Of a stretch of 64,000 nucleotides of DNA, positions 11,982-57,517 are shown piece by piece. The stretch is from an uncultured Gemmatimonadaceae bacterium (GTDB lineage Bacteria; Latescibacterota; UBA2968; UBA8231): the NCBI GenBank assembly GCA_964591015.1, contig CAZPXM010000002.1, positions 4,342 to 68,341 of the forward strand, read 5' to 3'. A program made the position numbers and the translations under genes. Every line of letters starts with the position of its first letter. The first letter of the stretch is position 1. The notes under the pieces were generated by a model. The model did no database searches. It was not told the origin of the DNA and saw only the letters and a program-made list of their open reading frames with translations.

Positions 11982-11993
11982 TGGCCTTCCTCG

Positions 11994-14430: not shown

Positions 14431-14443
14431 CGCTGCCCTCTCC

Positions 14444-17263: not shown

Positions 17264-17273
17264 GGGCCGAGCC

Positions 17274-17984: not shown

Positions 17985-18013
17985 CCGGCCGCGCAGATGA
18001 CGAGGAACGGACC

Positions 18014-18559: not shown

Positions 18560-18585
18560 TCGATCGAGCCGACAGGAGGGCCATC

Positions 18586-22815: not shown

Positions 22816-22834
22816 CGCGGGAGCGCCGTTCCCG

Positions 22835-25147: not shown

Positions 25148-25165
25148 CCCGCGAGGAGACTGCGC

Positions 25166-25456
25166 ATGTGCCTGGCGGTGCCTGGGAGACTGGTGGAGAT
25201 CCGCGCGAGCGACGACCCCATGGGCCGGTCCGGCAAGGTGAGTTTCGGCGGCGTGCTCAAGGAGGTCAGCCTGGCCTATCTGCCGGAGGCGCGCGTCGGC
25301 GACTACGTGACCGTGCACGTGGGCCTCGCGCTCAGCATCGTCGACCCCGAGGATGCTGCCCTGGTGTTCGCGCTTCTCCGGGAAGCCGGCGAGGCGTCGC
25401 CGCCTGCTGAAGCTGGCGCGGCTGGCGCGGACAGCGACGAAGGCGCGCGAGGGTGA
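25166..25456 (+). CDS. hypC: Hydrogenase maturation factor HypC (HupF/HypC family)
   Basis: The N-terminal [12 protein letters not shown] is the conserved MC(L/I)(A/G)(I/V)P start. Size is 96 aa. Confidence 0.8.
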
Positions 25457-35561: not shown

Positions 35562-35732
35562 CTTCTGTCTCCCGGAAACGGTTGCCGGCGACTTCTCGCC
35601 GCCAACGAGTGGCAATGCTTGCCGCTGCCCGCCGGGACGTCGCTCCCGTGGCTGGCAGGGCCGGTCCCAAGATGCGGCGGATCAGGAGGCCGGACAACAG
35701 CCGCCGCTGCCGGCTCCGCGCCCACAATCCGT

Positions 35733-35761
35733 TTGACAACGAGCGAACAGGCGCCTACATT
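35733..35761 (+). promoter_or_regulatory. Sigma-70-like promoter candidate (TTGACA-N17-TACATT) in the 440-bp divergent intergenic region
   Basis: A perfect -35 hexamer with 17-nt spacing to a 4/6 match -10 hexamer. It is oriented toward the secreted-protein gene starting at 36002, about 240 nt downstream. Confidence 0.25.
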
Positions 35762-36001: not shown

Positions 36002-36925
36002 ATGCGCAAGATGCTCTATCTGACGCTGGCGATCGGCATGGTTGCGACGGCCGCGTACGGTCAGTTCTGGGATCCCCCCACGCTGGCCCAACGCAACGCC
36101 AGCGGCTTCTACTACTACATGCTCGAGGTTCCCAACGGCCACACCATGGTCGCTGACGGCAACGTCGCTGACTGGGCCTGGTTCGATCCGGACTACGTCA
36201 TCGCGATGGACGAGTGGCGCGACGAGGCCGACCGGCCGCTGCCCAACCGCGACGACCTGGACATCACCACGATGATGGCCTGGAAGGGCGCTCCGGAGAA
36301 CCGGTGGTATGTGTACATGAAGGCGCACGACGACACGCTGAATCACGGCGGCACCACGGTGAACCGCTGGTCCGGCGACATGCTCGGCTTCGCCATGGAC
36401 CCGCAGGATCACGGGCGTGACCGCGCCAACGGCGGCTACGGCATCGAGTTCGTCGCTGCTCCCGGCAACGTGAATGCCAACTACATGGAGCGGTACCCGG
36501 AGTCCGAAGGCGCTGCCGGGTTCGCGGCGTGGCGGGAGTACGGCGAGCCCCCGTGGCTGAACGGCGCGGTGACGGTTGATCCGGCCGAGGCGTGGGCTGC
36601 CGAAACGTGGACGTCGGACACCGGCGGCGAGACGGTGTACGAGTTCAACGTGTGGGTCGCCAACTACCTGGAGGACGGCGGACCAGCGGCCAGCCAGGCG
36701 CGCGACCTGAACGCGCAGGCCGGCGAGGATGGGTTCGGGTTGCCGGTGGTCTTCTGGTACGAGGACGGCGATCCGGCCTTCAACAACGACATGACCATCC
36801 GCGGCCCGGAGGCCTCGAGCCGCCAGTACTTCGCGGCCACCAGACTGCTCCGCATCGGGGAGTACCAGCAGCAGGGTACTGCGGTGGAGCAGAGCACCTG
36901 GGGTCGCATCAAGGGCTCCTTCTAG
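36002..36925 (+). CDS. Secreted hypothetical protein with a CBM9/DOMON-like putative carbohydrate-binding domain
   Basis: A signal peptide (MRKMLYLTLAIGMVATAAYG), an ACGAGGAG RBS, and a DGNVADWAWFDPDYVI region resembling family-9 CBM modules. The family assignment is tentative. Confidence 0.4.
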   Translation: MRKMLYLTLAIGMVATAAYGQFWDPPTLAQRNASGFYYYMLEVPNGHTMVADGNVADWAWFDPDYVIAMDEWRDEADRPLPNRDDLDITTMMAWKGAPENRWYVYMKAHDDTLNHGGTTVNRWSGDMLGFAMDPQDHGRDRANGGYGIEFVAAPGNVNANYMERYPESEGAAGFAAWREYGEPPWLNGAVTVDPAEAWAAETWTSDTGGETVYEFNVWVANYLEDGGPAASQARDLNAQAGEDGFGLPVVFWYEDGDPAFNNDMTIRGPEASSRQYFAATRLLRIGEYQQQGTAVEQSTWGRIKGSF

Positions 36926-36935
36926 CCCCGCTCAG

Positions 36936-36981
36936 CAATGGCTCCCTTTGCCTGCTTGCTGCTCGGCGAGGGGAGCCATTG
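36936..36981 (+). terminator. Stem-loop (11-bp perfect stem CAATGGCTCCC/GGGAGCCATTG, 24-nt loop) 10 nt after the stop of the 36002-36925 gene; candidate intrinsic terminator
   Basis: A perfect inverted repeat followed by a modestly T-containing tract (TGTCGT). Confidence 0.35.
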
Positions 36982-37184: not shown

Positions 37185-37901
37185 ATGCGAACGCTTCGCT
37201 TGATCGCAGCCCTGCTGGTGCTGGTCGGCTGCGGACGCTATTTCCCTGGCCCGCTGCGGCCGATCGCCGAGCAAGCGGAACGGATGACGGTCAATGACGA
37301 CGGCTCGGTGACCTTCCGGCAGGACCGTCTGGAGATCATCCTGCAGCCCATGACCGATGAGCAGCTGAACCGCCAGTTCGGCGCCGCGTCGGTCGGTGGG
37401 GCGGAATCGACGAACCCCTACACCTATGGGAACTGGCGGCCCCTGGGCAGTGACCGGCCACCCGCTCGCTTCACGGTGTTCCAGCTCACGGTGCGCAACT
37501 ACCAGTACCCGAAGGTGGTCCTCGATCCGACCAAGGCGCGGCTGGCGACGACCAACAACCGGCAGTACGGGGCCCTGGCCTTCGCCCAGTTGGAGGAGTA
37601 CTACCGGGCTTATTGGATCGGGAGGAGCGGCCGGGGCCGCGAGCGCTTCGAGGCGCGCACCGACCTGCTGCGGCGGACCATGTTCCGCGCCGATCCGGTG
37701 TTCAGCGGCCAGGAGTCTCGGGGGTACCTCGTCTTCCCGTTGCTGCACGACGACGTCACCAAGCTCACGGTCACCGTCCCCGACATCGCGGTGCGCTTCG
37801 ACTATGCTGGCGATCCGGTCGAGACCATCGAGGTGAGCTACACGTTCGCGCGCGAGGTCTTCAGAGGGTACCAGACCCCGCCAGAACTGGCGAGGGAGTA
37901 G
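37185..37901 (+). CDS. Predicted lipoprotein of unknown function (first gene of the surface-protein locus)
   Basis: The signal peptide ends in the lipobox LVGC (MRTLRLIAALLVLVGCG). It ends 10-22 nt before the next gene. Confidence 0.5.
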   Translation: MRTLRLIAALLVLVGCGRYFPGPLRPIAEQAERMTVNDDGSVTFRQDRLEIILQPMTDEQLNRQFGAASVGGAESTNPYTYGNWRPLGSDRPPARFTVFQLTVRNYQYPKVVLDPTKARLATTNNRQYGALAFAQLEEYYRAYWIGRSGRGRERFEARTDLLRRTMFRADPVFSGQESRGYLVFPLLHDDVTKLTVTVPDIAVRFDYAGDPVETIEVSYTFAREVFRGYQTPPELARE

Positions 37902-37923
37902 CGATCCCAGCGTGGGACGAGCT

Positions 37924-39945
37924 ATGAGAGACCTGTCGTGTGCATGCGAGGCGCTGGCTTCTGTCCTGGCCGCGGCGCTGGCCCTCGGGACTGCAGCGCC
38001 GGCGGCGGCGCAGAGCGAGTACTGGCGTCTGGGCACGGGCGGCCAGTCATGGACCGGCGAAGCCCAGAGCCAGGTGGGCGCGGCCGTCGTGGCGGGGGCG
38101 CTGCAGCCGGTGCAGATCGTGCCGGGCGCCAACCTGACCCAGGTGCTCAAGTCCGGTGGTCAGGTCTGGGTGAACGGCCCGCCGGAGGACTACACGGTCG
38201 GCGGCGCGCCCCGTGCGTGGAGCAACTCCACCGTCTTCAACCTCCAGTCGGGGCCCCTCTTGCTGGTGGACGGCCAGCCGGCGACCTCTTCGGCCTCGGT
38301 GTTCAAGAGCTCGGGCAACCCGGCGGGCACCGCCTTCTTTGTCGACCTCGGCACGAGTTACCCCGTCAACCGCGTGCGCTTCTACCCGCCGCCCGACGAT
38401 CCCGACGCGTACCTGCGGGCCTACGAGGTGACCACGAGCAGCGGCAGCGATTTCGATGCCAGCAACCGGCCGAAGTACCGCCGCTTGCGCCGCGTGGAGA
38501 GCAATCGTGACGCGGTGGTCGATCTGGAGTTCGAGACCGCCATGGTGCGGTTCCTGCAGGTCAAGAATCTGTCGAAGACGCCCTTCAGCCTCGCCGAGAT
38601 CGAGGTGTACGGCGAGGGGTTCGTCCCGGCGTCGTCCTACCTGAGCAAGCTGCACCGGTTCGCGACTCCCGCCAACTTCGGCGTCGTGACCGTGGGCGCC
38701 ACGCGGCTGGGCAGCGGCCTGCGTCCCGGGGCCGACCCCCCTCGCTGCACGGTCCGGCTGCGCACCGGGATGGATGACACGCCGGTGAGCTACTTCCGGC
38801 GCGATCGGGAGACCGGCGAAGAGTCCGAGGTGACGCAGAACGAGTACGAGAAGCTCCTGCCGCGGCTGGCCTACTACCGGGTGAACCCGGCGACCGGCGC
38901 GCTCACCGAGGTCAACTCGCGCGCGGAGTACCTGGCCCTGCCCGCCGACCAGCAGGGTCCGGTGCGCGACTACGTCCAGGGCTCTGTTCGCTCCGATGCC
39001 GCCAACTGGAGCCCGTGGTCAGTGCCCGTGAAGCTGGACAGCACCGGCTCGGTCACGGTGTACCTGGGGCTGCCGGGACCCCGCCAGTACGCGCAGCTGT
39101 GGATCGAGTTCGCGGGGGATTCGGAGAACGCCCTGCGGATCGATGGGTTCGCGCTCGAGCACGCCCCGCTGCTGGCGACGGCCAGCGTGGGGGAGGTCGC
39201 GTTGGCCTCGATGCCAGTACCTGCCGCGAGCCTCACGGAAGTCGCGGCGGGCGTCGAGACCACCTTCACCTGCGACGTGCGCGCGACCTTCGAGCAGGCC
39301 GGCCTGAAGGGGTTCGCGGGCGTCCGCGTCGAGTCGTTTCCGGCACCGGTGTTCGAGCGGCTCGAGATGGGCGATCCCCTCGTGCCGGTGGCGCTCCCGG
39401 CCGTCACGCCCACGGCGGCGGGATTCGACGTGCGCTTCGCGGTGGTGGACGGCGCCAGCAACGCGCCGGTCCGCGTGGTCTACCGGCAGGCCGTGGTGCA
39501 GCACACCACGGCGGTGAATGTCTGGCTGCTGGACCCGGCGGGGGGCGTGCCGCAGCCGGTGACCGGCGGCAATGCGCGCAACGATGTGGGCACCAACTCG
39601 CTGCTGGTCTACACCGCCGATCCCAGACCGGCGCTGGGGGTGGAGATCCGGCCAGCGGTGATCACGCCGAATGGTGACGGGGTCCACGATGCCGCGTCCA
39701 TCGAGTACCGGCTCATCCAGTTCGCGGGCGAGGTTCGTCTGGAGGTGGAGGTCTGCGACCTGGCGGGACGCGTGGTGCGGCGGCTGGTGAACGGTCGCTC
39801 GGGATCGGGTAGCTTCGCCGTGACGTGGGACGGATGCTCGAGCGCCGGCCGGAGGGTGGCGCCGGGCAACTACATCTGCCGCGTGCGGGTCGACGCCGAC
39901 GCCCGCTCCTTCACCGCGGCGAGAGTGCTGGGGGTGGCATACTGA
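37924..39945 (+). CDS. Secreted protein, paralogue 1: N-terminal F5/8 type C (discoidin)-like domain and C-terminal FlgD Ig-like (T9SS-CTD-like) domain
   Basis: A signal peptide, a discoidin-like end (FSLAEIEVYGEGF), and a C-terminal ITPNGDGVHD...GRVVRRLVNG...WDGCSSAGRRVAPGNYICRVRV that matches the FlgD_ig pattern. An alternative GTG start at 37912 is possible. Confidence 0.6.
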   Translation: MRDLSCACEALASVLAAALALGTAAPAAAQSEYWRLGTGGQSWTGEAQSQVGAAVVAGALQPVQIVPGANLTQVLKSGGQVWVNGPPEDYTVGGAPRAWSNSTVFNLQSGPLLLVDGQPATSSASVFKSSGNPAGTAFFVDLGTSYPVNRVRFYPPPDDPDAYLRAYEVTTSSGSDFDASNRPKYRRLRRVESNRDAVVDLEFETAMVRFLQVKNLSKTPFSLAEIEVYGEGFVPASSYLSKLHRFATPANFGVVTVGATRLGSGLRPGADPPRCTVRLRTGMDDTPVSYFRRDRETGEESEVTQNEYEKLLPRLAYYRVNPATGALTEVNSRAEYLALPADQQGPVRDYVQGSVRSDAANWSPWSVPVKLDSTGSVTVYLGLPGPRQYAQLWIEFAGDSENALRIDGFALEHAPLLATASVGEVALASMPVPAASLTEVAAGVETTFTCDVRATFEQAGLKGFAGVRVESFPAPVFERLEMGDPLVPVALPAVTPTAAGFDVRFAVVDGASNAPVRVVYRQAVVQHTTAVNVWLLDPAGGVPQPVTGGNARNDVGTNSLLVYTADPRPALGVEIRPAVITPNGDGVHDAASIEYRLIQFAGEVRLEVEVCDLAGRVVRRLVNGRSGSGSFAVTWDGCSSAGRRVAPGNYICRVRVDADARSFTAARVLGVAY

Positions 39946-42035
39946 TGACCGCGTGGACGAGTCCCCGGCGGCAGCCATGGCGCGTCTCGATCGGCATGGC
40001 GTTCGCGGTGCTGGCGCTGGGGCACGGGCTGGCTGCCGGGCAGGCGCCGCCGTCCGAGTGGGTGATCGGCGGGCGGGGAGGGGTGCCGTGGGCCAGCGTG
40101 GCGGAGCGCTGGATAGCGCTGGATGACAGCACGCAGCCGGGCGCGGTGCAGTTGTGGCGGCTCGAGAAGGGACAGAACGTGCTGCGCGAGCGCGTGCGGT
40201 CCGGCGCCACCGTGCCGCGCAACGTTTTCCTCTACAAGTGGTGCACGGCGCGCGGGCGCTACGGGATGGGGATCGACACGCTGCTGATCGGCTGGAACCC
40301 GCGCCTGTGGAATGGCGGCGGGGCCGAGGCCACGGGCACGCGCGAGCTGGTGGACGGCGACGAGTTCACCTACGCGTTCCTGCTGGCGCCGCCGGCCACC
40401 GATCGGCCGAGCGCGATCACCTGGATCACGCTGGATCTGGGCATCCCTCTGGCGCTGGACAGCCTGGTGTTCTTTCCGCCCCAGAACGGCTTCTACAAGG
40501 AGAACGTGCGCTTCCGCGATCTGTACCCGGCCGCGTACGAGGTGAGCCGCACCAACCAGGTGATCGACTGGCTGCTGTTCGAGGACGAGACGGCCGCGAC
40601 TGGGAGCTCCGCCTACCATGCGCTGCCCGAAGTGGTGGCCTCGACCTACTCGAACGACCAGAGCGTGGTCAGCATCAGCATGGTGCCGCGGTTCACCCGT
40701 TTCGTGCGCCTGCGTCTGGGCGGGGTGAAGAGCACGTCGGTGCTGTCGGAGATCAAGGCCTACGGCCAGGGCTTCGCACAGGAGGGGCGTTTCCTGTCCA
40801 AGCCGCACTGGTTCGGGCGAGCGGTCAGCCTGGGCGACGTCAAGTGGAGCTTCCGCAAGTTCCGGCTGGGAGCCGACGGACGGCTCGTCGAGGATCCGAC
40901 CGCGCCGGTCAGGCTGACGCTGCGGACGCGCGCGGGCACCGACGCGGATCCCAATGCGTACTACGTGTACGACGAACTGGGACGTCAGGTACGCGTGGAA
41001 GCGGCCGAGTACTACAAGGCCTTCGCGCCGCGCGCAGCGTACGAGGAGGGCCTGCCCGGCTTCCGCGCCGCGCTGACCGACGACGTGGGCCACTGGAACG
41101 AGTGGTCCATCGCGTACCAGAATCCGGGCGACGCGAACCGTTCCTCGGATGGCCGGGAGTACTTCCAGTTCCAGTTCCAGATCGCCACCGACGATCCCTA
41201 TGCGGTCGGCGTGCTGGACAGCCTGTCCTTCCAGGTCTCGCCGCTGCTCGCGGACAGCGTGGTCGCCGAGGTCTCTTTGGCCGGCAGCAGTGGCAGCGAG
41301 CCGCGGAGCGAGGTGCGGCTCGGGCAGGATACCGTCTTCGTATTCGACATGCGGGCCGTATTCGCCGCCGCCGGGCGCCCTGGCTTCGATGCGATCGCGC
41401 TGCACGTTCCTGCTGGCACCCAGTTCCTGGATCTGGAGGTGAACGGCGTGCCGGCGATCGCGGGCCAGGACTTCACGCTGGCGTACGCGGCGGACGAGGG
41501 GCTGATGCGGTTCGCGTTCCCCGCACCGTTTCTGAGCGACACTGCGTTCCGGTTCCGGTACCGATGTGCCTTGTACAGCCCCTCCGTGTACCTCGGTGGG
41601 GAAGTGGAGAACCGGAGCGGCGGCGGCACGCTGCTGCCCCAGGCGATCGAGGCGGGCAATGCCCGGAACGACGTGGCCACCAACAGCACGCAGGTGGTGG
41701 CGGCGGCCAGGCGCGTGGAGGTCCTCGGTGACGTCGAGGTGAATCCTGCGGCGTTCACGCCCAATGGCGATGGGGTCAACGACCGGATCCAGGTGATCGT
41801 CCCCGTCTTCGGCGTGCAGTCGGCACGGGTCGAGGTGCTGGTCCGCGATCTGCACGGCCGCCGGGTGGCCATGCTGCGCGACGGCTCGGTAGGCGCCGGC
41901 AGACTGGCACTCGCCTGGGACGGGCGCGGCGATGGTGGCGGCCGCGTGGCGCCGGGGGTCTACCTGATAAGTGCCAAGCTGGATGTCGACCGCGACACCT
42001 ACGTGAAGATCCGGCCGGTGGCGGTGGCATTCTGA
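39945..42035 (+). CDS. Secreted protein, paralogue 2 (discoidin-like N-terminus, FlgD Ig-like C-terminus)
   Basis: The ATG overlaps the upstream stop (TGATGA). It has a signal peptide, SEIKAYGQGF, GNARNDVATNS (shared with paralogue 1), and the C-terminal FTPNGDGVNDRIQV...GRRVAMLRDG...WDGRGDGGGRVAPGVYLI. Confidence 0.6.
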   Translation: MTAWTSPRRQPWRVSIGMAFAVLALGHGLAAGQAPPSEWVIGGRGGVPWASVAERWIALDDSTQPGAVQLWRLEKGQNVLRERVRSGATVPRNVFLYKWCTARGRYGMGIDTLLIGWNPRLWNGGGAEATGTRELVDGDEFTYAFLLAPPATDRPSAITWITLDLGIPLALDSLVFFPPQNGFYKENVRFRDLYPAAYEVSRTNQVIDWLLFEDETAATGSSAYHALPEVVASTYSNDQSVVSISMVPRFTRFVRLRLGGVKSTSVLSEIKAYGQGFAQEGRFLSKPHWFGRAVSLGDVKWSFRKFRLGADGRLVEDPTAPVRLTLRTRAGTDADPNAYYVYDELGRQVRVEAAEYYKAFAPRAAYEEGLPGFRAALTDDVGHWNEWSIAYQNPGDANRSSDGREYFQFQFQIATDDPYAVGVLDSLSFQVSPLLADSVVAEVSLAGSSGSEPRSEVRLGQDTVFVFDMRAVFAAAGRPGFDAIALHVPAGTQFLDLEVNGVPAIAGQDFTLAYAADEGLMRFAFPAPFLSDTAFRFRYRCALYSPSVYLGGEVENRSGGGTLLPQAIEAGNARNDVATNSTQVVAAARRVEVLGDVEVNPAAFTPNGDGVNDRIQVIVPVFGVQSARVEVLVRDLHGRRVAMLRDGSVGAGRLALAWDGRGDGGGRVAPGVYLISAKLDVDRDTYVKIRPVAVAF

Positions 42036-42046
42036 GGGCGGACCGA

Positions 42047-44467
42047 ATGAACACGGAACGACGAGTCGCTGGGCTTGGGCGTACGCTCCGCGCCTTGCTG
42101 ATTCTGGGCGCGGTGGGGGCAGGCGCAGCCGCAGCCGAGGAGCTGCGGACATTCGGGCCGGCGGAGATGGCTGCCTGGGACTACCCGCGCGGGCTGGTGG
42201 ACGTGGACAGCGGCGGGGTGCGTGTGCGGCCGTTCACCGGGCCGTACAACGCGATGACCGATGCGGACAGGTACAGGTCGGTTGTCATCGGGGAGCATGG
42301 CAAGCAGAGGTTCCGCAGCGCGTCGAACGCGGCCACCGCGCCGCTGCTGGGCGACCAGAACCTGTCGACCTGGTGGCGGCCGGACCCGACGGATCCGGTG
42401 ACTCGGTGGTGGGTGGAGATCGATCTGGGCCGTTGCGTCGTGGCGAGCCGGATCCGGGTGATCTTCCCGGATACGCTGGACGTGCGACCGTTCCAGTTCT
42501 TCTCGCTCTACGTCAGCCCGGGAATCTCCGTGCAGACGGCCCCCGACCAGATCCGCTACACGCGCGTCGGACGGCCGGTGAACAACAACGCCAGGCGGGT
42601 GATCGACTTCGACCTGCGGACGGTGGACCCCGCGGTGGCCACGGGCCAGTACCTGGTCACGGGAGACACCCTCGACTTCGATCTGGTGCGCTTCGTGCGC
42701 TTCGAGGCGGGCGGCGTGACGGCGGGCGCCGCGGTGGCGGAGATCGAGGTCGAGACCGTGGGGATCAACATCGCCACGCGGGTGACCACTGCCGACAAGG
42801 CGGAGAGAGGTTTCGAGCTGTGGGGGGGCAGCACCTGGACTTCGGGTGAGTGGGTGTGCAATCCCTGCGGCCGGGGCACGGGGGCCGAGGGCATCATCGA
42901 CGGAGACATGGACGGCCGCTACTGGACGATCGAGGCCAACAACCTCCCGGACTGGCGGACGCTGGGCAACTGGGGCGTGATCGACATGCGCCACATCTTC
43001 CGCCTCAGCCGGATGGTGTGGGTGCCGAACGTCCTGGACGAGAGCCCCTACCTGTACTGCTGCGACCGCCAGCGCCAGGGGGGCTGGCGCGACGTCGAGT
43101 TCCTCGTCTCCGACGGTTCGCCGAGCAATCTGACGGTCGCCGACGCCGAGGGCCCGTTCGAGTACAAGCTGCTCAGCAAGATCATCAACAACACCGCGCC
43201 GTTGCGCTGGCTGTTCGATCTGGAACTGCCGTCCACCGAGGCCCGCCTCATCTTCTGGCGGCGCATGGACGTCACCGGCAGCTCGTCGTGGCATCGTGCG
43301 GCCCAGCTCTTCATCTTCCCGGCTCTGGGCTACCCCAAGGAGGTGGTCATCGAGTCTGGCGACATCGACCTGGGTGGGGCGTACAGCGTCCGGCAGGTCC
43401 GCTGGGACGCGGACATGCCGCCCGGGACCCGGATCCACGTGGAGACGCAGACGGGCAACGGGTACGTGACCGTCGAGCGGTACTATCTGGCCAATGGCGT
43501 CGAGGTCACCAAGGCCGAGTGGGAGGCAGCCAAGCCACGGCAGCGGGGTGCGGTCGTGCAGGATGTCGTGCGCGACGGGAGCTGGAGCCGGTGGAGCCTG
43601 CCGCACATGTACTCCGGCCAGGAGTTCCTGTCGCCCACGCCCCGTCGCTGGGTGCGGCTGCTGGTGCGGCTGATCAGCGACGATCCCGCCGTGATGCCGG
43701 TGCTGCGCTCGCTGACGTTCGTCATGAACAGCCCGGTGATCGCCAGGGGGGTCAGCGGCCGGTTGGAGCCGCGGCTGGCCGCCCTCGATACGCTGCAGAG
43801 CTTCCGCTATACGCTCTGGCCGAACGAATTCACGGCGAGCGACGCGGGCCTCGATCGCGTGATCATCAAGGTGCCGCCGGCCGCGACGGACACCGACTTG
43901 CTGCGCGTCATCGTGGGTGGCCGCGAGGTGGCAGCCACTGGGCAATTGCGCGGCGATTCGCTGGTCGTGTCCCTGCCGGCGCCGGCGGTGCGCCGGGATA
44001 CCGTGGTGGTCGAGTTCCGCTCGCGGGTGTACCGCAGCCCGACCGTATTCGACGCGTTCGTGTCCAACTCGGCGCAGGCGGACAATGTCCAGGGCGTGAC
44101 GGCCGCAGCGCTCGGCCTCGACCAGGTGTTCGTGCCGCAAGTCGAGCAGGTCGCGTCGCTGTTCCAGAACGTGACGCACACGACGGTGTTCACGCCCAAC
44201 GGCGATGGCACCAACGATGTGTGCGAGCTGTCGTTCAACACGGTGAACACCGCCAGGGAGCCGGTCGTCCGCGTCCTCGCGCTCACCGGGGAGGAGGTGA
44301 GCGTGCTGGTCAACAGCGGCAGCGTCGTCGGCCGGGCGCGGTACTGCTGGAACGGCGAGAGCCGCGCTGGCGGGCTGGTGCCGCCGGGCATCTACCTGAT
44401 CCGGATGGAGATCAGCACCGACGCGGGCGAGCAAGCGGCAACCCGGCTCGTCCACGTGGTCTACTAG
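42047..44467 (+). CDS. Secreted protein, paralogue 3 (clear F5/8 type C-like N-terminal domain, FlgD Ig-like C-terminus)
   Basis: A signal peptide, then DQNLSTWWRPD...RWWVEIDLG...ASRIRVIFP (discoidin signature), and the C-terminal FTPNGDGTNDVCEL...GEEVSVLVNS...WNGESRAGGLVPPGIYLIRMEI. Confidence 0.6.
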   Translation: MNTERRVAGLGRTLRALLILGAVGAGAAAAEELRTFGPAEMAAWDYPRGLVDVDSGGVRVRPFTGPYNAMTDADRYRSVVIGEHGKQRFRSASNAATAPLLGDQNLSTWWRPDPTDPVTRWWVEIDLGRCVVASRIRVIFPDTLDVRPFQFFSLYVSPGISVQTAPDQIRYTRVGRPVNNNARRVIDFDLRTVDPAVATGQYLVTGDTLDFDLVRFVRFEAGGVTAGAAVAEIEVETVGINIATRVTTADKAERGFELWGGSTWTSGEWVCNPCGRGTGAEGIIDGDMDGRYWTIEANNLPDWRTLGNWGVIDMRHIFRLSRMVWVPNVLDESPYLYCCDRQRQGGWRDVEFLVSDGSPSNLTVADAEGPFEYKLLSKIINNTAPLRWLFDLELPSTEARLIFWRRMDVTGSSSWHRAAQLFIFPALGYPKEVVIESGDIDLGGAYSVRQVRWDADMPPGTRIHVETQTGNGYVTVERYYLANGVEVTKAEWEAAKPRQRGAVVQDVVRDGSWSRWSLPHMYSGQEFLSPTPRRWVRLLVRLISDDPAVMPVLRSLTFVMNSPVIARGVSGRLEPRLAALDTLQSFRYTLWPNEFTASDAGLDRVIIKVPPAATDTDLLRVIVGGREVAATGQLRGDSLVVSLPAPAVRRDTVVVEFRSRVYRSPTVFDAFVSNSAQADNVQGVTAAALGLDQVFVPQVEQVASLFQNVTHTTVFTPNGDGTNDVCELSFNTVNTAREPVVRVLALTGEEVSVLVNSGSVVGRARYCWNGESRAGGLVPPGIYLIRMEISTDAGEQAATRLVHVVY

Positions 44468-44490
44468 CAGCCTAACTGGGGGATGGATAC

Positions 44491-47139
44491 GTGAAACGCC
44501 GAAACCTGGTTCCGCTCTATGGCTTGGCCCTCGCCCTCCAGATGGCTTCCGCCGGGGCCTACGGGCAGGCAATGACGGGGTTCCAGAACCCGTACTATAC
44601 GACGGGCACGCGCATCGCGCCCTCGACCCTGGTGCCGACGCTGCGCAAGTGGTACCTGCCCCAGCGCCTCTACTCGCTCTACGCCTGGCGGCCCGAGGAG
44701 TACACGAACTACGCGCGGGAGCTGTATCAGACCTACAACCCGGTCGCGCTCGAGGGCGCTCCGTACTATGACCAGTACGGCGCCTATATCACGCGCGGCT
44801 GGGAGATCTACAACTGGACCGAGAGCTATCCGGAGAGCTACGGATCCAACATCTTCAAGGATCCTCGCTTCAGCTCGTGGTTCCGCAACCTGGTGATCGC
44901 CTCGAGCCACGCAGGGGAGTACCACACCGCGCTGATGGCTGGCGACGGCATCCGCACGTCGTTGACGCCGCTGACCTTCTCCAAGCCGCGCTTCGATGGC
45001 GTGCAGTGGGACTTCCTGTCGGACAAGTACGCGGTGACGCTGCTCGGCTCGCGCGCCAATCACACCGGCGACGTGGCCAACAACTCCGGCGATCCGCCCA
45101 TCTCGACCGATCCGTTCACCAACCTGTACGCGATGCGGACCGAGGCGCAGGTGGGCGATTTCGCGCGGGTGGGCTTCACCTTCGTCAACGCCGCCCACCG
45201 CAGCACGAACCTGTCGTTCGGCGAGAATTCCCTGAAGGGCGTGCTGGCGGGTCCGCTGAACACCGACTTCGTGCGCACGATCAGCGTGCGGATCGCCGAC
45301 GATTCGCCCGAGGACGGGATCGGCGGGGCGCTGCTGTCCCGGTGGCGCATCTTCGTCAACGGCGTGGAGCACACGGACGACATCCAGCCCACCATCGAAG
45401 GCGGTCTGCGGCAGCGCGGCGTGTACGAAGCGAGCGGCGCCGACGTGGTGACGCTCACCTTCAACCTGGAGCAGTTCCGGCCCAGCGTCGAGGATCAGAT
45501 CGACGACTTCCGGCAGATCGAGTCGGTGGAGATCGGCCTGGTCCTGGCCAACGACTACGCGGTGAGCATCACCTCGAACAAGCAGACCAACATGCTGGGC
45601 ACACCGGTGTACCTCCCGGTGCTGCGCGCGGCGGGCAACGTCAAGGACGGCTCCAACCAGACCTACCACCAGTTCCGCTACGGCCTGCCGACCGGCAATC
45701 GGCTGATGGGGTTCAGCCTCGACGTGGCGGATGTGGCGGGGTTCAGCCTGCGCGGCGAGGCGGTGCGCAACTACCAGTACCGGCGTTTCCCCAACGAGAA
45801 CATCGAGACGGGGCAGGCGCTGGCGACCACGACGGCGGACGCCTACTACCTCACGGCCCAGAAGATGGCCTATCCCTGGAACCTGTTCGGCGAGATCTTC
45901 CGCATCGACCACGACTACAGCACGAGGGCCTTCATACCCACCTCCAACGGCGAGGTGTTCTACGACAACGAGAGCCAGTGCGTTTACGAGTTCGTGGACG
46001 ACAACGACGACCAGGACGAGCTGGCGGACTGGACCCGCAAGTATCAGGGCCCGGTGACGAACACGCGGTTCGGCAGGAACCTGCGGACGGATGACGCCGT
46101 CTTCCCGGGACTGGACGAGGACAACGACGACATCTCCGACTTCAACCGTAACTTCAACCAGACACCGGACTATGCCGAGCCGTTCCTGCGGTTCGAGGTC
46201 GATCCCCCGGCGTTCCTGTTCGGGATGGACATGAACAACAACACGGTGATCGACCGGTTCGAGGACGACACGGAGGCGGACTACCCGTACCAGCGCGGTC
46301 GGTCGGGCTACAACTTCTACGGCGGCGTGGAGATCTTCCCGGGCTCGGACCTGATCGCGGGTCGGTTCTCGACCAGGCAGCTGCGCACCAACCGCGATGC
46401 CCTGGGTCATTACCTGCTGTGGACGATGCGCAAGGAATTCCCCGAGCGGGACCTGGACCTGTGGTTCATCCTGCACCCGCGCAAGGTGCAGGACAACATC
46501 CCCGACGATGTGCTGGTATGGACTCAGGAGGAGGGCTCGACGGGCGGCTCGACGTTGGTGCGCGATCCGCTGGTGGGCGAGGATGCCTTCGTCAACACCG
46601 CCTACTTCGAACTGCGCTACGATCGGTTCCTGCCGCTGGTGGCCAAGGTGAAGCACGAGATCTACCACCAGTACCAGGACGATCCGACCCGCCGCGATCA
46701 GGAGTTCCTGGGGATCATCACCAAGGGGGAGTACCCCTTGCAGGTGCGCGGCTGGAAGCTGCAGCCGCGCTGGAAGCAGCAGTACGCCAGCCAGGTGCCC
46801 TGCCTGCGCGAGCAGTTCAGGACCCAGGAGCTGACGGAGATCCTCAGTTTCATGGTCAGCCGCCGCCTGACGCAGAACATCCTGGTCACCGCTGGCGGCG
46901 AGTACGAGATCTTCGAGAACGTGCGCAGGAAGCCCGATCCGGTGCCCTCGGGATGGGCGGAGGACTCCAACACCCGGACCATCGCGGCGCAGGTGTCCAA
47001 CGTCTCGCCCTACTCGGGCTACGGCATCACGACCAACGTCGGGTTCCAGTGGAGCCGGGTCAAGGTGCACGGAGGCTCCGCGGCGTCCGAGTTGTTCTCC
47101 TTCATCACGGTGTACGCGGGACTGGGCACGGACCGCTGA
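44491..47139 (+). CDS. Large (882 aa) secreted protein, probable outer-membrane beta-barrel, unknown function
   Basis: A signal peptide (MKRRNLVPLYGLALALQMASAGAYGQ), abundant amphipathic beta-strand-like segments, an Asp/Asn-rich central region, and a C-terminal ...ELFSFITVYAGL. It lies 24 nt after paralogue 3. Confidence 0.45.
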   Translation: MKRRNLVPLYGLALALQMASAGAYGQAMTGFQNPYYTTGTRIAPSTLVPTLRKWYLPQRLYSLYAWRPEEYTNYARELYQTYNPVALEGAPYYDQYGAYITRGWEIYNWTESYPESYGSNIFKDPRFSSWFRNLVIASSHAGEYHTALMAGDGIRTSLTPLTFSKPRFDGVQWDFLSDKYAVTLLGSRANHTGDVANNSGDPPISTDPFTNLYAMRTEAQVGDFARVGFTFVNAAHRSTNLSFGENSLKGVLAGPLNTDFVRTISVRIADDSPEDGIGGALLSRWRIFVNGVEHTDDIQPTIEGGLRQRGVYEASGADVVTLTFNLEQFRPSVEDQIDDFRQIESVEIGLVLANDYAVSITSNKQTNMLGTPVYLPVLRAAGNVKDGSNQTYHQFRYGLPTGNRLMGFSLDVADVAGFSLRGEAVRNYQYRRFPNENIETGQALATTTADAYYLTAQKMAYPWNLFGEIFRIDHDYSTRAFIPTSNGEVFYDNESQCVYEFVDDNDDQDELADWTRKYQGPVTNTRFGRNLRTDDAVFPGLDEDNDDISDFNRNFNQTPDYAEPFLRFEVDPPAFLFGMDMNNNTVIDRFEDDTEADYPYQRGRSGYNFYGGVEIFPGSDLIAGRFSTRQLRTNRDALGHYLLWTMRKEFPERDLDLWFILHPRKVQDNIPDDVLVWTQEEGSTGGSTLVRDPLVGEDAFVNTAYFELRYDRFLPLVAKVKHEIYHQYQDDPTRRDQEFLGIITKGEYPLQVRGWKLQPRWKQQYASQVPCLREQFRTQELTEILSFMVSRRLTQNILVTAGGEYEIFENVRRKPDPVPSGWAEDSNTRTIAAQVSNVSPYSGYGITTNVGFQWSRVKVHGGSAASELFSFITVYAGLGTDR

Positions 47140-47252: not shown

Positions 47253-48656
47253 TCAGCGCTCCAGCTCGATGCTCGCCAGCACGTCTGCGTACACCTGGAT
47301 CTGGTCGCCGTACTGCTGGCGCAGGCGGGCGATGAACTCGTCCATCGCCCGGTCAGCGGCGGACCGCTGGAGCAGCCGGCGCGCGCGTTCCCGCACGGCC
47401 AGGCTGGCGGCATCGGCAGCCTGCGCGGTGTCCCGGTCGTGCGGATCGCGCCTGGCCAGCAGGAACGAATCCACCTGGGCATCGGCGACGGCGGAGATCT
47501 TTCCCTGGCCCTCGAGGCGGTAGAGCTCGGCGGCCATCAGCTGGTCGCGCTTGCCCTCCACCTGGGCCCGGATATCCGGCAGGCGATCGTACCCGAGCCG
47601 CCGCGCCTCTGTCATCATGATGCGCTGGCCAGCCAGGTTGTCGACCAGCTTCTGCAGTTCGGGGAGCGGCAGCGACGACGGATGGCGGACCCGCCCCGAG
47701 GTGTGCAGGGCCAGGTAGTCTCTGCAGGTGAACTGACCGCCCTGCCAGGTGAGCAGAGGCTCGTCTTCCCCTGGCCACTCCTTGCTGTCGGCCGGCAGAG
47801 CGTGCAGGCGGCCCAGGGCCTCGGCGTGGGCAGTCAGCCGATAGCGCTCGCGGAGCTCGGACACATAGCGCGCTCGGGCCTGGCTCCGGCGCTCGCTGTC
47901 CAGCTTGCGCTGGATCACGGCGCGAACCGAGTCGAGCGGCACCTCGCGCCGGCCGTTCAGGCGGAACACATGGAAGCCCAGCGAACTGGCGACCGGCTCG
48001 GCCGTCAGGCTGCCGACGGGCATGGTGCGCATGGGTTCCACCAGGGGGGGCAGCATGTCGGCCAGCAGGAACCAGCCGATGTTGCCGTCTTCGCCGAAAC
48101 GGCGGCGAACGTTCGGCAGCGAGTACCGAGGCGCGAGTTCCGCGAAGCTCCTGCCGGCGCGCAGCTCGGCCAGTGCCAGGCGGGCGCTGTCCGCCGAAGG
48201 GCAGACGATCTGCTCGCTGAGGACCTCGGTGTCGTAGTGGTTCCGGCGGTAGTACGACTCGATCTCTTCGTCGGCGGGCTGACCGGACGCGGGGACGGCC
48301 TGACGCGCGTACAGCGTCTCGATGAGGGCCCGCTGCTCCAGGCGCGCTACCTGGTCGGCGATCTGCGGCTCGCGGTCCAGGCCGCGGTGCAGGGCCTCCA
48401 GCACGATCAACTTCTGCGCGATCACGTCGGCGAGCAGTTGTTGCCTGACCGTCGCGTCGATGGTGTCCAGGTCGCGGTACCCCGGTGCCGCGCGCAGCAA
48501 GCGCGCGGCCTGGGCGCGGAAGTCCGCGGCGGTGATCTGGACGGCACCGACGCGGGCGACCACGGACCCGTCTCCGGTGGTCGCGCAGGCTCCCCAGGCC
48601 GCGACCAGGGCGCTGGCAGCGACCGCGAACGACGGTAGCAGCGAGGCTGGTCTCAT
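47253..48656 (-). CDS. SurA/PpiD-like periplasmic chaperone with parvulin-type peptidyl-prolyl isomerase domain
   Basis: A signal peptide (MRPASLLPSFAVAASALVAAWGA), SurA-N-like helices, and a PpiC-type domain (GWFLLADMLPP...GFHVFRL). The start is the ATG at 48656 with a GAGGAG RBS. Confidence 0.65.
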   Translation of the reverse strand: MRPASLLPSFAVAASALVAAWGACATTGDGSVVARVGAVQITAADFRAQAARLLRAAPGYRDLDTIDATVRQQLLADVIAQKLIVLEALHRGLDREPQIADQVARLEQRALIETLYARQAVPASGQPADEEIESYYRRNHYDTEVLSEQIVCPSADSARLALAELRAGRSFAELAPRYSLPNVRRRFGEDGNIGWFLLADMLPPLVEPMRTMPVGSLTAEPVASSLGFHVFRLNGRREVPLDSVRAVIQRKLDSERRSQARARYVSELRERYRLTAHAEALGRLHALPADSKEWPGEDEPLLTWQGGQFTCRDYLALHTSGRVRHPSSLPLPELQKLVDNLAGQRIMMTEARRLGYDRLPDIRAQVEGKRDQLMAAELYRLEGQGKISAVADAQVDSFLLARRDPHDRDTAQAADAASLAVRERARRLLQRSAADRAMDEFIARLRQQYGDQIQVYADVLASIELER

Positions 48657-48840
48657 CGCTCCTCGTCCATCCCTCGGTGTTCGGTGAGTGCTTCGGGGCG
48701 CGATCCCACGGCAGCGCGTGCGCCGCCGCGCGCGGCGGCGCACGCTGCCAGGAAGCGGACGGATGAATATAGGCGGGCTCCTCGCCTCGGCCAGCCGCGA
48801 GCGTAGACACTGGCTGGCGACGGCTCTATACTTCCACGCC

Positions 48841-57183: not shown

Positions 57184-57190
57184 GGCGACC

Positions 57191-57517
57191 TCACTGCAGC
57201 GGCGAGAATGGGGTGGGAGCAAGGTTCTTCGAGATGACCCGCGCGACGATCGGTCCGGCTGCTTCGGTGCGGGCGCGCGCGGCCACCCACTCGGGGTCGG
57301 CCCGGAAGGCGCGCCACGCTCGCTCCTGGGCCGCCTCGTCGGCGAAGCGAAGCAGGTAGACCAAAGCGTTTTCTGCCTGCGGGCCAACCTCGGTCCAGAA
57401 TCCGACGAGCTCCATGCCGTGCCGCGCGAACAGGCTCAGCGTGACGGTGGCGAACCGGGCCAGGATGTCCGGCATCCGGCCCGCGGGGATCAGGTAGGTG
57501 CGCAGTTCGTAGAGCAA
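57191..57517 (-). CDS. NIPSNAP-family small protein
   Basis: LLYELRTYLIP...MELVGFWTEVGPQAENALVYLLRF...AWRAFRADPEW. The TTG start at 57517 is preceded by AGGGAGGG. Confidence 0.5.
   Translation of the reverse strand: MLYELRTYLIPAGRMPDILARFATVTLSLFARHGMELVGFWTEVGPQAENALVYLLRFADEAAQERAWRAFRADPEWVAARARTEAAGPIVARVISKNLAPTPFSPLQ

What the first reader, a model, noticed from the sequence alone, without database searches (positions are those of the whole stretch)
37185..47139. Tight five-gene cell-surface locus: lipoprotein, three paralogous secreted discoidin/FlgD-Ig proteins and an 882-aa putative outer-membrane protein, flanked by a SurA-like chaperone
Seen in sequence: five plus-strand genes with junctions of 10-22, -1 (ATGA overlap), 12 and 24 nt, all with signal peptides. 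Paralogues 1-3 (about 674, 696 and 806 aa) share an N-terminal F5/8-type-C-like module, clearest in paralogue 3 (WWRPD...WWVEIDLG). They also share C-termini of the FlgD-Ig/T9SS-CTD type (TPNGDG-x-ND...WDG...G-x-Y). Paralogues 1 and 2 additionally share a GNARNDV-x-TNS motif. The final gene encodes a large Asp/Asn-rich protein with beta-barrel-like C-terminal strands. Convergent to the locus are a SurA-like OMP chaperone and a secreted TPR protein. Inference: this is a co-transcribed surface assembly, perhaps glycan-binding adhesins or S-layer-like cargo with a dedicated outer-membrane anchor or exporter. Whether the FlgD-Ig C-termini act as T9SS sorting signals depends on whether the genome encodes PorKLMN/SprA homologues, which are not in this window.
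Basis: partly seen in the sequence, partly recalled or inferred. Interest (0 to 1): 0.6.

Follow-up and report, generated by a model that had tools for sequence, protein, structure and literature searches.

The report
Multi-copy outer-membrane lectin module of Latescibacterota
The five genes are real and belong to a conserved eight-gene cell-surface module, built around a large outer-membrane barrel of an undescribed family and three sugar-binding-type proteins, that uncultured Latescibacterota carry in at least two to six diverged copies per genome and that probably captures, and perhaps imports, polysaccharides.

Summary
The five tightly packed plus-strand genes exist, all with signal peptides. 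The 882-aa protein is predicted as a roughly 24-strand outer-membrane beta-barrel. The three paralogues are discoidin/CBM32-type multidomain proteins that end in a FlgD_ig / T9SS-type-B-like Ig domain.

The unit is larger than reported. The upstream CBM9-like gene (36002-36925), the SurA-like PPIase and the TPR protein are co-conserved with the five genes, giving eight.

The whole module is duplicated as a unit. At least 2-6 diverged copies occur per complete Latescibacterota genome. Each copy has its own barrel, lipoprotein, CBM9-like protein and par1/par2/par3 set, and the partners co-diverge (Spearman 0.81-0.90).

The barrel family has no Pfam, NCBIfam or PDB sequence match, and every source calls it hypothetical. 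It has 956 cluster representatives in Latescibacterota, Ignavibacteriales, KSB1 and Marinimicrobia MAGs.

Its nearest folds are large lumen barrels: SlpA, MtrB, FimD/PapC and LptD. It is not PorP/SprF, SusC or a canonical usher.

Sibling modules are followed by sugar ABC importers and sugar-catabolic genes. The best reading is a surface glycan-capture (possibly uptake) complex with its own assembly chaperones.

Whether a T9SS exports the lectins could not be tested.

The parts
35733..35761 (+). sigma-70-like promoter match upstream of the CBM9-like gene (weak evidence)
   Evidence: TTGACA-17-TACATT, 10 of 12 matches. Four such sites in the region against 0.8 expected. The promoter type used by this phylum is unknown.
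36002..36925 (+). g307: secreted CBM9-like protein (307 aa) with the conserved C-terminal tail TAVE..SWGRIK.
   Evidence: Signal peptide. 10 of 21 orthologues hit PF06452 CBM9_1, best E 5e-6. The family profile hits T. maritima Xyn10A CBM9 (1i82) at E 0.004. Found next to the barrel gene in 42 of 83 loci, including permuted gene orders. Tail motif.
36935..36981 (+). strong stem-loop directly after the g307 stop codon; a likely partial terminator or 3' stabiliser
   Evidence: MFE -49 kcal/mol, z -6.5, 0 of 200 shuffles as stable. A long perfect hairpin sits at the same position in 19 of 21 related loci, with unrelated sequence.
37185..37901 (+). conserved outer-membrane lipoprotein (238 aa), family without a name
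   Evidence: Lipobox Cys16 is invariant in 24 orthologues, 42-60% identity. No Pfam, NCBIfam or PDB match. Homologous to the N-terminal domain of DUF4159-fusion proteins next to barrel homologues in an Ignavibacteria MAG.
37912..39945 (+). par1: secreted discoidin-like + beta domains + FlgD_ig C-terminal domain (CTD about 39652-39942; discoidin-like about 38245-38574)
   Evidence: Pfam FlgD_ig 37.1 bits; F5_F8_type_C 24.4 bits, below cut-off. hhalign to the par3 family at probability 100, E 4e-50. One-to-one orthologue in each module copy.
39945..42035 (+). par2: paralogue of par1, FlgD_ig C-terminal domain (about 41745-42032)
   Evidence: Pfam FlgD_ig 27.4 bits. 28% identity to par1 over the full length, E 9e-49. 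hhalign to the par3 family E 9e-53.
42047..44467 (+). par3: two tandem discoidin/CBM32-like domains (about 42134-42766 and 42827-43321), Ig-like middle domains, type-B-like CTD (about 44180-44464)
   Evidence: AF2 pLDDT 88, pTM 0.74. Foldseek hits: ZmpB CBM32-1/2 at E 5e-10, F-lectin, factor Va, neuropilin b1b2. Most orthologues carry PF13585, many carry PF00754/PF22633, and some are named 'gliding motility-associated C-terminal domain-containing protein'.
44491..47139 (+). OMP-882: about 24-strand outer-membrane beta-barrel of an undescribed family. It has a beta-sandwich inserted in an extracellular loop (residues 263-396; nt 45277-45678) and three Asp/Asn-rich Ca-binding-type loops (residues 504-593; nt 46000-46269).
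47253..48692 (-). SurA-like peptidyl-prolyl isomerase / chaperone (start uncertain; likely ATG at 48656)
   Evidence: Rotamase_2, Rotamase and SurA_N_3 hits. An orthologue lies next to the barrel in 42 of 83 loci and co-diverges with it, rho 0.83.
48841..50154 (+). secreted TPR protein (ORF opens at 48688; likely start ATG 48841)
   Evidence: Seven or more TPR repeats. An orthologue lies in 56 of 83 loci, rho 0.81. Promoter-like site at 48804-48832.

Best explanation
This is one copy of a modular outer-membrane complex typical of Latescibacterota.

Its parts are:
- an approximately 24-strand beta-barrel of a new family, with a surface beta-sandwich and Ca-binding-type acidic loops;
- a conserved outer-membrane lipoprotein;
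- a CBM9-like secreted protein;
- three anciently triplicated lectin-type proteins (discoidin/CBM32 domains), each ending in an Ig-like FlgD_ig / type-B-like C-terminal domain;
- a dedicated SurA-like chaperone and a TPR protein that serve assembly in the periplasm.

Proposed mechanism. The Sec system exports all parts. The SurA-like and TPR proteins escort them. The barrel, with its lipoprotein, forms the membrane platform. The three lectins and the CBM9-like protein are held at the cell surface on the barrel, through their C-terminal Ig domains and tail. There they capture polysaccharide or glycoprotein fragments. These fragments probably pass through the wide barrel to periplasmic binding proteins and ABC or MFS importers.

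Diverged module copies in one genome would give different ligand specificities. That makes this a functional counterpart of Bacteroidota Sus-type systems built from unrelated parts.

Shown: the gene set, its co-conservation, co-duplication and co-divergence, the folds, and the sugar-uptake neighbours.

Inferred: physical assembly, surface exposure, glycan binding, passage through the barrel, and the export route of the lectins.
For: Module integrity:
- The same genes surround barrel homologues at 70%, 63% and 45% identity, even when gene order is permuted.
- 59 of 83 Latescibacterota loci hold lipoprotein + par1 + par2 + par3 + barrel; many of the others are truncated contigs.
- 601 of 949 predicted genes in these loci belong to module families.
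- Partner identity tracks barrel identity, Spearman 0.81-0.90.
- There are at least 6 copies in one genome and 4 copies in each of four others. Each copy has one par1, one par2 and one par3 (76, 71 and 83 classified).

Folds:
- The barrel model and its large-barrel matches.
- par3 as tandem CBM32/discoidin.
- g307 as CBM9-like.
- The lipobox.

Glycan link:
- Recurrent neighbours of sibling modules are Peripla_BP_1 + ABC_tran, SBP_bac_1 + two BPD_transp_1, MFS, three GFO_IDH_MocA clusters, a DHDPS-family aldolase, a xylose-isomerase-like TIM barrel and a sulfatase.
- This window holds a GH29 fucosidase directly upstream, a second fucosidase-like gene and a KDPG aldolase.
- The binding proteins diverge faster than the barrel (median 32-34% vs 47% identity).
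- Latescibacteria are predicted algal-polysaccharide degraders for which only 'non-specific porins' have been proposed at the outer membrane (PMC4454575).
Against: - No glycoside hydrolase or regulator is consistently inside the module.
- Sugar genes are common in this phylum, so the neighbour enrichment has no measured background.
- No ligand, localisation or expression data exist.
- The barrel model is only of medium confidence (pLDDT 70), and its lumen (open or plugged) could not be inspected.
- The CTDs resemble T9SS sorting domains, which suggests a different export and anchoring logic.
- In distant phyla the family sits beside ExbB-ExbD-ExbD and DUF4159 genes, whose role this model does not explain.
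- The high conservation of the barrel and lipoprotein would also fit a structural role.
Confidence: 0.5

Rival explanations
1. T9SS cargo and anchor. The three paralogues are type-B-CTD cargo exported by a type IX secretion system encoded elsewhere. They are then held on the surface by the adjacent barrel, which plays the part of a PorP/SprF-like anchor. They act as adhesins for attachment or gliding rather than for nutrient uptake.
For: - CTDs begin with (T/S)PNGDG-x-ND and hit CHU_C, TIGR04131 and FlgD_ig.
- Most par3 orthologues carry PF13585, and NCBI names some 'gliding motility-associated C-terminal domain-containing protein'.
- The same CTD ends other large proteins in these genomes (WD40, He_PIG, FG-GAP), with Por_Secre_tail hits below cut-off. 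That is what a general sorting signal would look like.
- In an Ignavibacteria locus, a weak PorP_SprF-like 310-aa gene lies between the discoidin-CHU_C gene and the barrel homologue.
- Type-B cargo is known to bind cognate PorP-like proteins encoded next door (PMC9143113).
- Latescibacterota belong to the FCB group, where T9SS occurs (PMC11205867).
Against: - CHU_C and TIGR04131 scores are below their cut-offs in all three window proteins.
- The barrel has about 24 strands and is 882 aa, with no PF11751 hit in any of 56 members. PorP/SprF/PorV proteins are 14-strand FadL-type barrels.
- No T9SS core gene lies in the window or in any annotated related locus.
- A fixed 3:1 lectin-to-barrel set with its own SurA-like and TPR proteins is not how known type-B pairs are organised.
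- No paper in the searched library links Latescibacteria with T9SS.
Confidence: 0.2
2. Structural envelope complex. The barrel is an SlpA/OmpM-like abundant outer-membrane scaffold. The lectin-like proteins form a protective or adhesive surface layer on it, stabilised by Ca2+. Multiple copies would serve variation (phage or predator evasion) rather than nutrient specificity.
For: - Some distant family members carry precomputed or weak PF21620 SlpA_C hits.
- The acidic Ca-type loops are invariant.
- The barrel and lipoprotein are strongly conserved.
- The hairpin after g307 suggests one highly expressed subunit.
Against: - There is no SLH domain, coiled coil or other peptidoglycan-binding module: no Pfam hit at all.
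- TM-scores to SlpA are low (0.17-0.21).
- The window protein itself does not hit SlpA_C.
- The sugar-importer neighbours are left unexplained.
Confidence: 0.12
3. Self-contained secretion machine. The wide barrel is itself the translocon, in the manner of an usher, through which the three Ig-domain proteins are threaded and on which they stay attached. The SurA-like and TPR proteins act as dedicated periplasmic chaperones and the lipoprotein or loop domain acts as a plug.
For: - The strand count from DSSP is about 24.
- A dedicated chaperone gene sits in the module.
- A hairpin follows the first subunit gene. In chaperone-usher operons the major-subunit gene is also followed by a stem-loop; that point is from my own recollection, and the hairpin data are.
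- MtrB and LptD, which house a partner protein, also match.
Against: - No usher (PF00577) or PapD-like chaperone signature.
- The inserted beta-sandwich maps to an extracellular loop by my topology count, not to the plug position of ushers.
- Discoidin domains are bulky for a 24-strand pore.
- No energy source or donor-strand motif was identified.
Confidence: 0.13
4. Exopolysaccharide export. The TPR protein plus barrel act like AlgK/AlgE, PgaA or BcsC, and the lectin-like proteins handle the polymer at the surface.
Against: No glycosyltransferase, synthase or polymer-modifying gene lies in the module or recurs beside it. The barrel is far larger than the 16-18-strand exporters. The neighbours are importers and catabolic enzymes.
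Confidence: 0.04

Closest known systems
T9SS type-B CTD cargo with cognate PorP/SprF-like outer-membrane anchors (SprB-SprF; PG1035-PorP-PorE)
   Same: Secreted multidomain surface proteins end in an Ig-like C-terminal domain that starts with a PNGDG-x-ND motif. They are encoded next to a dedicated outer-membrane beta-barrel. The system occurs in FCB-group organisms, with several cargo/barrel sets per genome.
   Different: The barrel here has about 24 strands and 882 aa, is a new family, and gives no PF11751 hit; PorP-like proteins are 14-strand FadL-type barrels. There are three fixed paralogous cargo proteins per barrel, plus a lipoprotein, a CBM9-like protein, a SurA-like protein and a TPR protein. 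CTD scores are below the TIGR04131 and PF13585 cut-offs in this window. No T9SS core has been demonstrated.
Bacteroidota SusC/SusD polysaccharide utilisation complexes with surface glycan-binding proteins
   Same: Many diverged copies per genome. An outer-membrane barrel is combined with surface-exposed carbohydrate-binding-module-type proteins and lipoprotein(s). Loci lie beside sugar importers and catabolic genes. The binding proteins diverge faster than the barrel.
   Different: There is no TonB-dependent receptor Plug or barrel domain and no SusD fold. The lectins are not lipoproteins but carry Ig-like CTDs. No CAZyme or regulator is fixed in the locus. A dedicated SurA-like and TPR pair is present. 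A canonical TonB-dependent receptor exists elsewhere in the same window (2687-5848).
Deinococcus SlpA / OmpM-type giant barrels
   Different: The protein here has no SLH domain or coiled-coil stalk, about 24 rather than 30 strands, and low TM-scores. The window protein does not match PF21620.
Barrels that house or thread a partner protein: FimD/PapC ushers, LptD-LptE, MtrB-MtrA
   Same: Similar barrel size (24-26 strands) and top Foldseek matches. A small lipoprotein is encoded beside the barrel, as with LptE. A SurA-type chaperone gene is adjacent; in E. coli, lptD and surA are neighbours (my own recollection, not tested here). The substrates are built of Ig-like domains, as with ushers.
   Different: There is no sequence-family membership, no usher N- or C-terminal domains, no beta-jellyroll and no cytochromes. 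The inserted domains map to extracellular loops.

Membership tests
T9SS type-B cargo / PorP-SprF anchor system | C-terminal domain matches TIGR04131 / PF13585 (CHU_C) above the curated cut-off | tested here: inconclusive
   Window proteins score 17.8, 17.8 and 22.5 bits against a cut-off of 27 for PF13585, and 15 and 12.8 against 35 for TIGR04131. Most par3 orthologues do have precomputed PF13585 hits.
T9SS type-B cargo / PorP-SprF anchor system | Adjacent cognate PorP/SprF-family barrel (PF11751, 14 strands) | tested here: not met
   No PF11751 hit for the 882-aa protein or for any of 56 family members. The model has about 24 strands. The only PorP_SprF-like hit is weak (19 bits vs 22.3) and lies in a distant Ignavibacteria locus.
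T9SS type-B cargo / PorP-SprF anchor system | Genome encodes the T9SS core (SprA/Sov, PorV, GldK/L/M/N, PorU) | not testable with these tools
   None lies in the 64-kb window or in the annotated related loci.
SusC/SusD-type PUL | TonB-dependent receptor (Plug + TonB_dep_Rec barrel) paired with a SusD-like lipoprotein | tested here: not met
   No Plug, TonB_dep_Rec or SusD hits in any module protein. TBDT structures match only at the generic barrel level.
Chaperone-usher pathway | Usher family barrel with plug and N/C domains, plus a PapD-like chaperone | tested here: not met
   No Pfam usher or PapD hits. The resemblance is structural only (Foldseek E 5e-8, TM 0.22).
SlpA / OmpM outer-membrane tether | N-terminal SLH domain + coiled coil + SlpA_C barrel (PF21620) | tested here: not met
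   No SLH or SlpA_C hit in the window protein or in 56 close homologues. There are weak or faint SlpA_C hits in some distant members only.
F5/8 type C (discoidin) / CBM32 domain | Galactose-binding-like beta-sandwich recognised by profile or by fold | tested here: met
   par1 scores 24.4 bits, below cut-off. par3 orthologues carry PF00754/PF22633. The par3 model matches tandem CBM32, F-lectin, factor V C domains and neuropilin b1b2. par1 and par2 align to the par3 profile at probability 100. Ligand binding was not tested.
FlgD_ig (PF13860) C-terminal Ig domain | Profile match above the gathering score | tested here: met
   par1 37.1 bits and par2 27.4 bits against a cut-off of 27. par3 scores 15.8, below cut-off, but its CTD is 38% identical to that of par1.
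CBM9-like domain (PF06452) | Profile match of the 307-aa protein family | tested here: inconclusive
   The window protein itself has no hit. 10 of 21 orthologues match, best E 5e-6. The family profile hits PDB 1i82 (CBM9) at E 0.004.

The most novel reading that the evidence does not exclude
The module is a previously unrecognised, self-sufficient outer-membrane machine of FCB-group candidate phyla (Latescibacterota, Ignavibacteriales, KSB1, Marinimicrobia). A new-family ~24-strand barrel both translocates and anchors its own trio of lectins, aided by private SurA-like and TPR chaperones, and then conducts captured glycans inward. This would be a TonB-receptor-free, T9SS-independent analogue of Sus systems. 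It would explain how these abundant uncultured polysaccharide degraders take up substrates.
Probability: 0.25. Interest if true: 0.85.

Novelty: new variant of a known kind. Interest (0 to 1): 0.66.

Why it matters
Latescibacterota and their neighbours are widespread, uncultured polymer degraders. How they handle substrates at the outer membrane is unknown; published reconstructions invoke only non-specific porins (PMC4454575).

This module is phylum-wide, multi-copy and co-evolving. It has a large barrel of an unnamed family (956 representative clusters, none annotated). That makes it a concrete candidate for the missing machinery.

It also gives a defined target set (barrel, lipoprotein, three lectins, CBM9-like protein) for structural work and glycan-binding assays.

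Finally, it bears on how far T9SS-style C-terminal domains are used outside Bacteroidota. It adds a new family to the small class of very large outer-membrane barrels that hold protein partners.

Tried and rejected
- An exact-sequence look-up of the 882-aa protein found nothing. The identical protein was then found by homology search (P0001).
- Pfam, NCBIfam and PDB sequence searches gave nothing usable for the barrel, the lipoprotein and the window's own g307 sequence.
- The AFDB50 fold library was unavailable.
- Literature searches linking Latescibacteria with T9SS, and a search for DUF6785, returned nothing.
- tblastn of the barrel against plasmids found no match.
- I considered whether g307 is a PorP/SprF-like barrel and rejected it. 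It is CBM9-like, and it is only 13% identical to the weak PorP-like protein of L006.
- I considered a TonB box in the conserved N-terminal TLVPTL stretch. It is not conserved in distant members (A5), so I dropped it as an argument.
- I considered a PUL proper and rejected it: there is no SusC/D.
- DUF6785/6784 and FG-GAP/UnbV_ASPIC partners are common in sibling loci but absent from this window.
- Consensus terminator scanning inside the block found no more sites than shuffled sequence.

Full report
**1. What is in the sequence**

The window is about 70% G+C. The five plus-strand genes are as reported:
- a lipoprotein gene, 37185-37901;
- three paralogues, 37912-39945, 39945-42035 and 42047-44467;
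- an 882-aa gene, 44491-47139.

The junctions are 10, -1, 11 and 23 nt. Each product starts with a signal-like hydrophobic segment. The lipoprotein has an LVGC lipobox, and its Cys is invariant in 24 orthologues.

Pfam gives the following:
- FlgD_ig is above its cut-off for par1 and par2 and below it for par3.
- CHU_C (T9SS type B) is below its cut-off for all three.
- F5_F8_type_C is below its cut-off for par1 only.

NCBIfam gives only sub-threshold FlgD and TIGR04131 hits. The lipoprotein, the 882-aa protein and the upstream 307-aa ORF have no family hit at all. The 882-aa protein has no PDB relative by sequence.

**2. The paralogues**

par1 and par2 are 28% identical over their whole length (E 9e-49). 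par3 shares its C-terminal half with par2 and its CTD with par1.

Profile-profile comparison aligns the par1 and par2 families to par3 residues ~261-806 at probability 100 (E 4e-50 and 9e-53). par3 therefore has the same architecture plus an extra N-terminal domain.

An AF2 model of par3, built on 51 orthologues, is confident (pLDDT 88, pTM 0.74) and all-beta. Foldseek matches:
- the tandem CBM32 pair of C. perfringens ZmpB (E 5e-10);
- an F-lectin;
- factor V/VIII C domains;
- neuropilin b1b2;
- the galactose oxidase N-domain.

Most par3 orthologues carry precomputed PF13585, and many carry PF00754/PF22633. NCBI names a few 'gliding motility-associated C-terminal domain-containing protein'. 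The paralogues are therefore discoidin/CBM32-type, non-catalytic, multidomain proteins that end in an Ig-like FlgD_ig / type-B-like domain.

**3. The 882-aa protein**

It has more than 540 full-length homologues of about 880 aa at 45-79% identity. All are 'hypothetical', and those with an organism label come from Latescibacterota or from MAGs labelled Gemmatimonadetes. A profile search of 1.84 billion cluster representatives finds 956 members (309 at E <= 1e-30), 860-1057 aa long. Labelled distant members come from MAGs:
- Ignavibacteria / Ignavibacteriales;
- 'Bacteroidetes bacterium';
- KSB1;
- Marinimicrobia.

None of 56 members matches any Pfam family.

The AF2 model (pLDDT 69.9, pTM 0.69) is a barrel of long antiparallel strands. 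From the DSSP string I count 24 strands with uniformly short periplasmic turns. Two large insertions fall in extracellular loops:
- a well-predicted beta-sandwich, residues 263-396;
- a poorly predicted Asp/Asn-rich stretch, residues 479-600. This stretch carries three invariant acidic loops, one of which has exact EF-hand spacing (D580, N582, N584, D588, E591).

**4. The unit is eight genes and is co-conserved**

Around barrel orthologues at 70%, 63% and 45% identity, the same set recurs:
- a ~307-aa secreted protein;
- the ~240-aa lipoprotein;
- par1, par2 and par3, each with its own one-to-one orthologue;
- the barrel;
- a SurA-like rotamase;
- a TPR protein.

In the most distant of the three loci the order is permuted, yet the set is kept.

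The 307-aa protein (window 36002-36925) is CBM9-like. 10 of 21 orthologues hit PF06452, and the family profile hits the T. maritima Xyn10A CBM9 structure. It ends in an invariant tail, TAVE..SWGRIK.

The lipoprotein domain also occurs fused to DUF4159 beside barrel homologues in an Ignavibacteria MAG.

**5. The module is multi-copy**

The best 80 are almost all from Latescibacterota MAGs. Among only these 80:
- one genome contributes 6 copies (L011, L023, L033, L068, L081 and L076);
- four complete genomes contribute 4 copies each.

Three of the six copies in the first genome lie within ~113 kb of each other.

A tblastn census shows that nearly every copy has its own g307, lipoprotein, par1, par2 and par3, and usually its own SurA-like and TPR genes, in three or more gene-order variants. 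Other counts:
- 59 of 83 loci hold lipoprotein + par1 + par2 + par3 + barrel; many of the rest are short contigs.
- 601 of 949 predicted genes in these loci belong to module families.
- Of 239 ORFs carrying the CTD, 230 classify as par1 (76), par2 (71) or par3 (83).

The triplication therefore predates the module duplications.

Identity of every partner to the window protein tracks barrel identity (Spearman 0.81-0.90). The barrel (median 47%) and lipoprotein (50%) are more conserved than the lectins (32-34%).

**6. Context**

This window has no T9SS core gene. Its flanks encode:
- hydrogenases and Hyp maturation proteins;
- Rnf;
- pyruvate dehydrogenase E1;
- a response regulator;
- a GH29 alpha-L-fucosidase directly upstream (34308-35615, minus strand);
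- a second fucosidase-like protein;
- a KDPG aldolase;
- aldehyde:ferredoxin oxidoreductase;
- a canonical TonB-dependent receptor (2687-5848).

In sibling loci the recurrent non-module neighbours are:
- sugar importers: Peripla_BP_1 + ABC_tran; SBP_bac_1 + two BPD_transp_1; MFS;
- sugar-handling enzymes: three GFO_IDH_MocA clusters, a DHDPS-family aldolase, a xylose-isomerase-like TIM barrel and a sulfatase.

Two further partners are frequent but absent from this window:
- a polytopic DUF6785/6784 membrane protein, in 29 of 86 loci;
- an FG-GAP/UnbV_ASPIC protein, in 39 of 86 loci.

In distant phyla the barrel occurs as two or three tandem paralogues. Beside it lie a par3-like CTD protein, lipoprotein-like and CBM9-like proteins, DUF4159, a giant TPR protein, a rotamase and, in three of five loci, ExbB-ExbD-ExbD.

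In the Ignavibacteria locus, a 310-aa protein between the discoidin-CHU_C gene and the barrel gives a weak full-length PorP_SprF match (19 bits vs 22.3).

**7. Interpretation**

The shown facts establish a co-functional, co-evolving envelope module. Its exported parts are lectin-type proteins and its hub is a very large barrel.

I favour a surface glycan-capture complex, probably coupled to passage through the barrel, for these reasons:
- Four of its proteins have carbohydrate-binding-module folds and none is catalytic.
- The binding components diverge fastest between copies.
- Copies are numerous per genome.
- Sugar importers and catabolic genes follow several module subfamilies.
- The phylum is predicted to live on algal polysaccharides, with no known outer-membrane uptake system (PMC4454575).

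The steps from Sec export to surface attachment, and any transport through the barrel, are inferred.

The main rival is that the lectins are T9SS type-B cargo and the barrel is their anchor. This is analogous to SprB-SprF or PG1035-PorP (PMC9143113). The CTD resemblance and the weak PorP-like gene in L006 speak for it. Against it stand the non-PorP nature of the barrel, the fixed 3:1 composition with private chaperones, and the lack of any demonstrated T9SS core.

Structural (SlpA-like), usher-like translocon and polysaccharide-export readings are less supported. All of these rivals agree that this is a dedicated outer-membrane assembly.

**8. Novelty**

No module protein except the domain-level FlgD_ig and discoidin parts belongs to a named family. 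Every database name is 'hypothetical'. No paper in the searched library describes the system.

It fails the defining features of Sus, PorP/SprF, usher and SlpA systems, yet it resembles each in one respect. I therefore rate it a new variant of a known kind (outer-membrane barrel plus surface binding proteins). There is a real chance that it is a distinct machine.

**9. Side observation**

A very stable hairpin follows the g307 stop codon (-49 kcal/mol, z -6.5). An equivalent hairpin of unrelated sequence sits at the same place in 19 of 21 related loci. This suggests differential expression of the CBM9-like subunit relative to the rest of the operon.

Noticed in passing
window 36935-36981; same position in L001, L003, L007, L011, L013, L014, L021, L022, L025, L028, L030, L035, L037, L040, L041, L054, L056 and others: A long perfect stem-loop directly follows the CBM9-like gene (window: -49 kcal/mol, z -6.5). 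The feature is positionally conserved in 19 of 21 related loci with unrelated sequences. It is likely a partial terminator or mRNA stabiliser that sets subunit stoichiometry.
   Followed up: partly
window 36884-36925 (C-terminus of the 307-aa protein): The invariant C-terminal tail TAVE..(S/T)WG.IK.. ends every member of the CBM9-like family. All 46 occurrences in the fetched loci lie within 12 residues of the end of an ORF, most of them (43) ORFs of about 300-400 aa. It could be a docking or sorting peptide. No known motif was identified.
   Followed up: partly
window 44575-44790 (barrel residues ~29-98): The N-terminal ~70 residues of the mature barrel are among its most conserved in Latescibacterota (consensus RISPxTLVPTLRKWYLPQ...). 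AF2 leaves them unstructured. The TLVPTL stretch looks TonB-box-like, but it is not conserved in distant family members.
   Followed up: partly
L023, L033, L011 (CBDCDC010000002.1, 1.07-1.18 Mb): Three complete module copies of the same subfamily lie within ~113 kb of one another in one genome. Further copies of other subfamilies lie elsewhere in that genome.
   Followed up: no
L006, L088, L089 (Ignavibacteria and unlabelled MAGs): In distant lineages the barrel is present as 2-3 tandem paralogues. The cluster there includes ExbB-ExbD-ExbD, DUF4159 proteins, DUF4340 and a ~1,050-aa TPR/YfiO-like protein. This hints at an energised or larger envelope system.
   Followed up: partly
L056:14343-17480(-), L084:19026-22136(-), L057:14846-20503(+), L076:20780-22600(-): Other large proteins carry the same FlgD_ig-type C-terminal domain, with Por_Secre_tail hits below cut-off: WD40-repeat proteins of ~1,040 aa, a He_PIG protein of 1,885 aa and an FG-GAP protein of 606 aa. 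The domain is therefore a general tag in these genomes, not one private to the three paralogues.
   Followed up: partly
29 of 86 loci (e.g. L003:13646-15601) and 39 of 86 loci (e.g. L001:17796-19424): A polytopic (10 or more TM segments) DUF6785/DUF6784 membrane protein and an FG-GAP/UnbV_ASPIC protein frequently accompany the module. Both are absent from this window.
   Followed up: partly
window 2687-5848 (-), 10260-14553 (-), 15191-20031 (+), 22496-26559 (+): The window also encodes a canonical TonB-dependent receptor with a CarboxypepD_reg domain, an [FeFe]-hydrogenase with NuoE/F-like subunits, a [NiFe]-hydrogenase-like gene and HypF/HypD maturation genes. This is consistent with a fermentative, hydrogen-cycling organism.
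   Followed up: no
window 34308-35615 (-) and 55180-57435 (-): A GH29 alpha-L-fucosidase lies immediately upstream of the module, on the opposite strand, next to a response regulator. A second fucosidase-like gene lies 8 kb downstream of the module. This may hint at the ligand class of this module copy.
   Followed up: no
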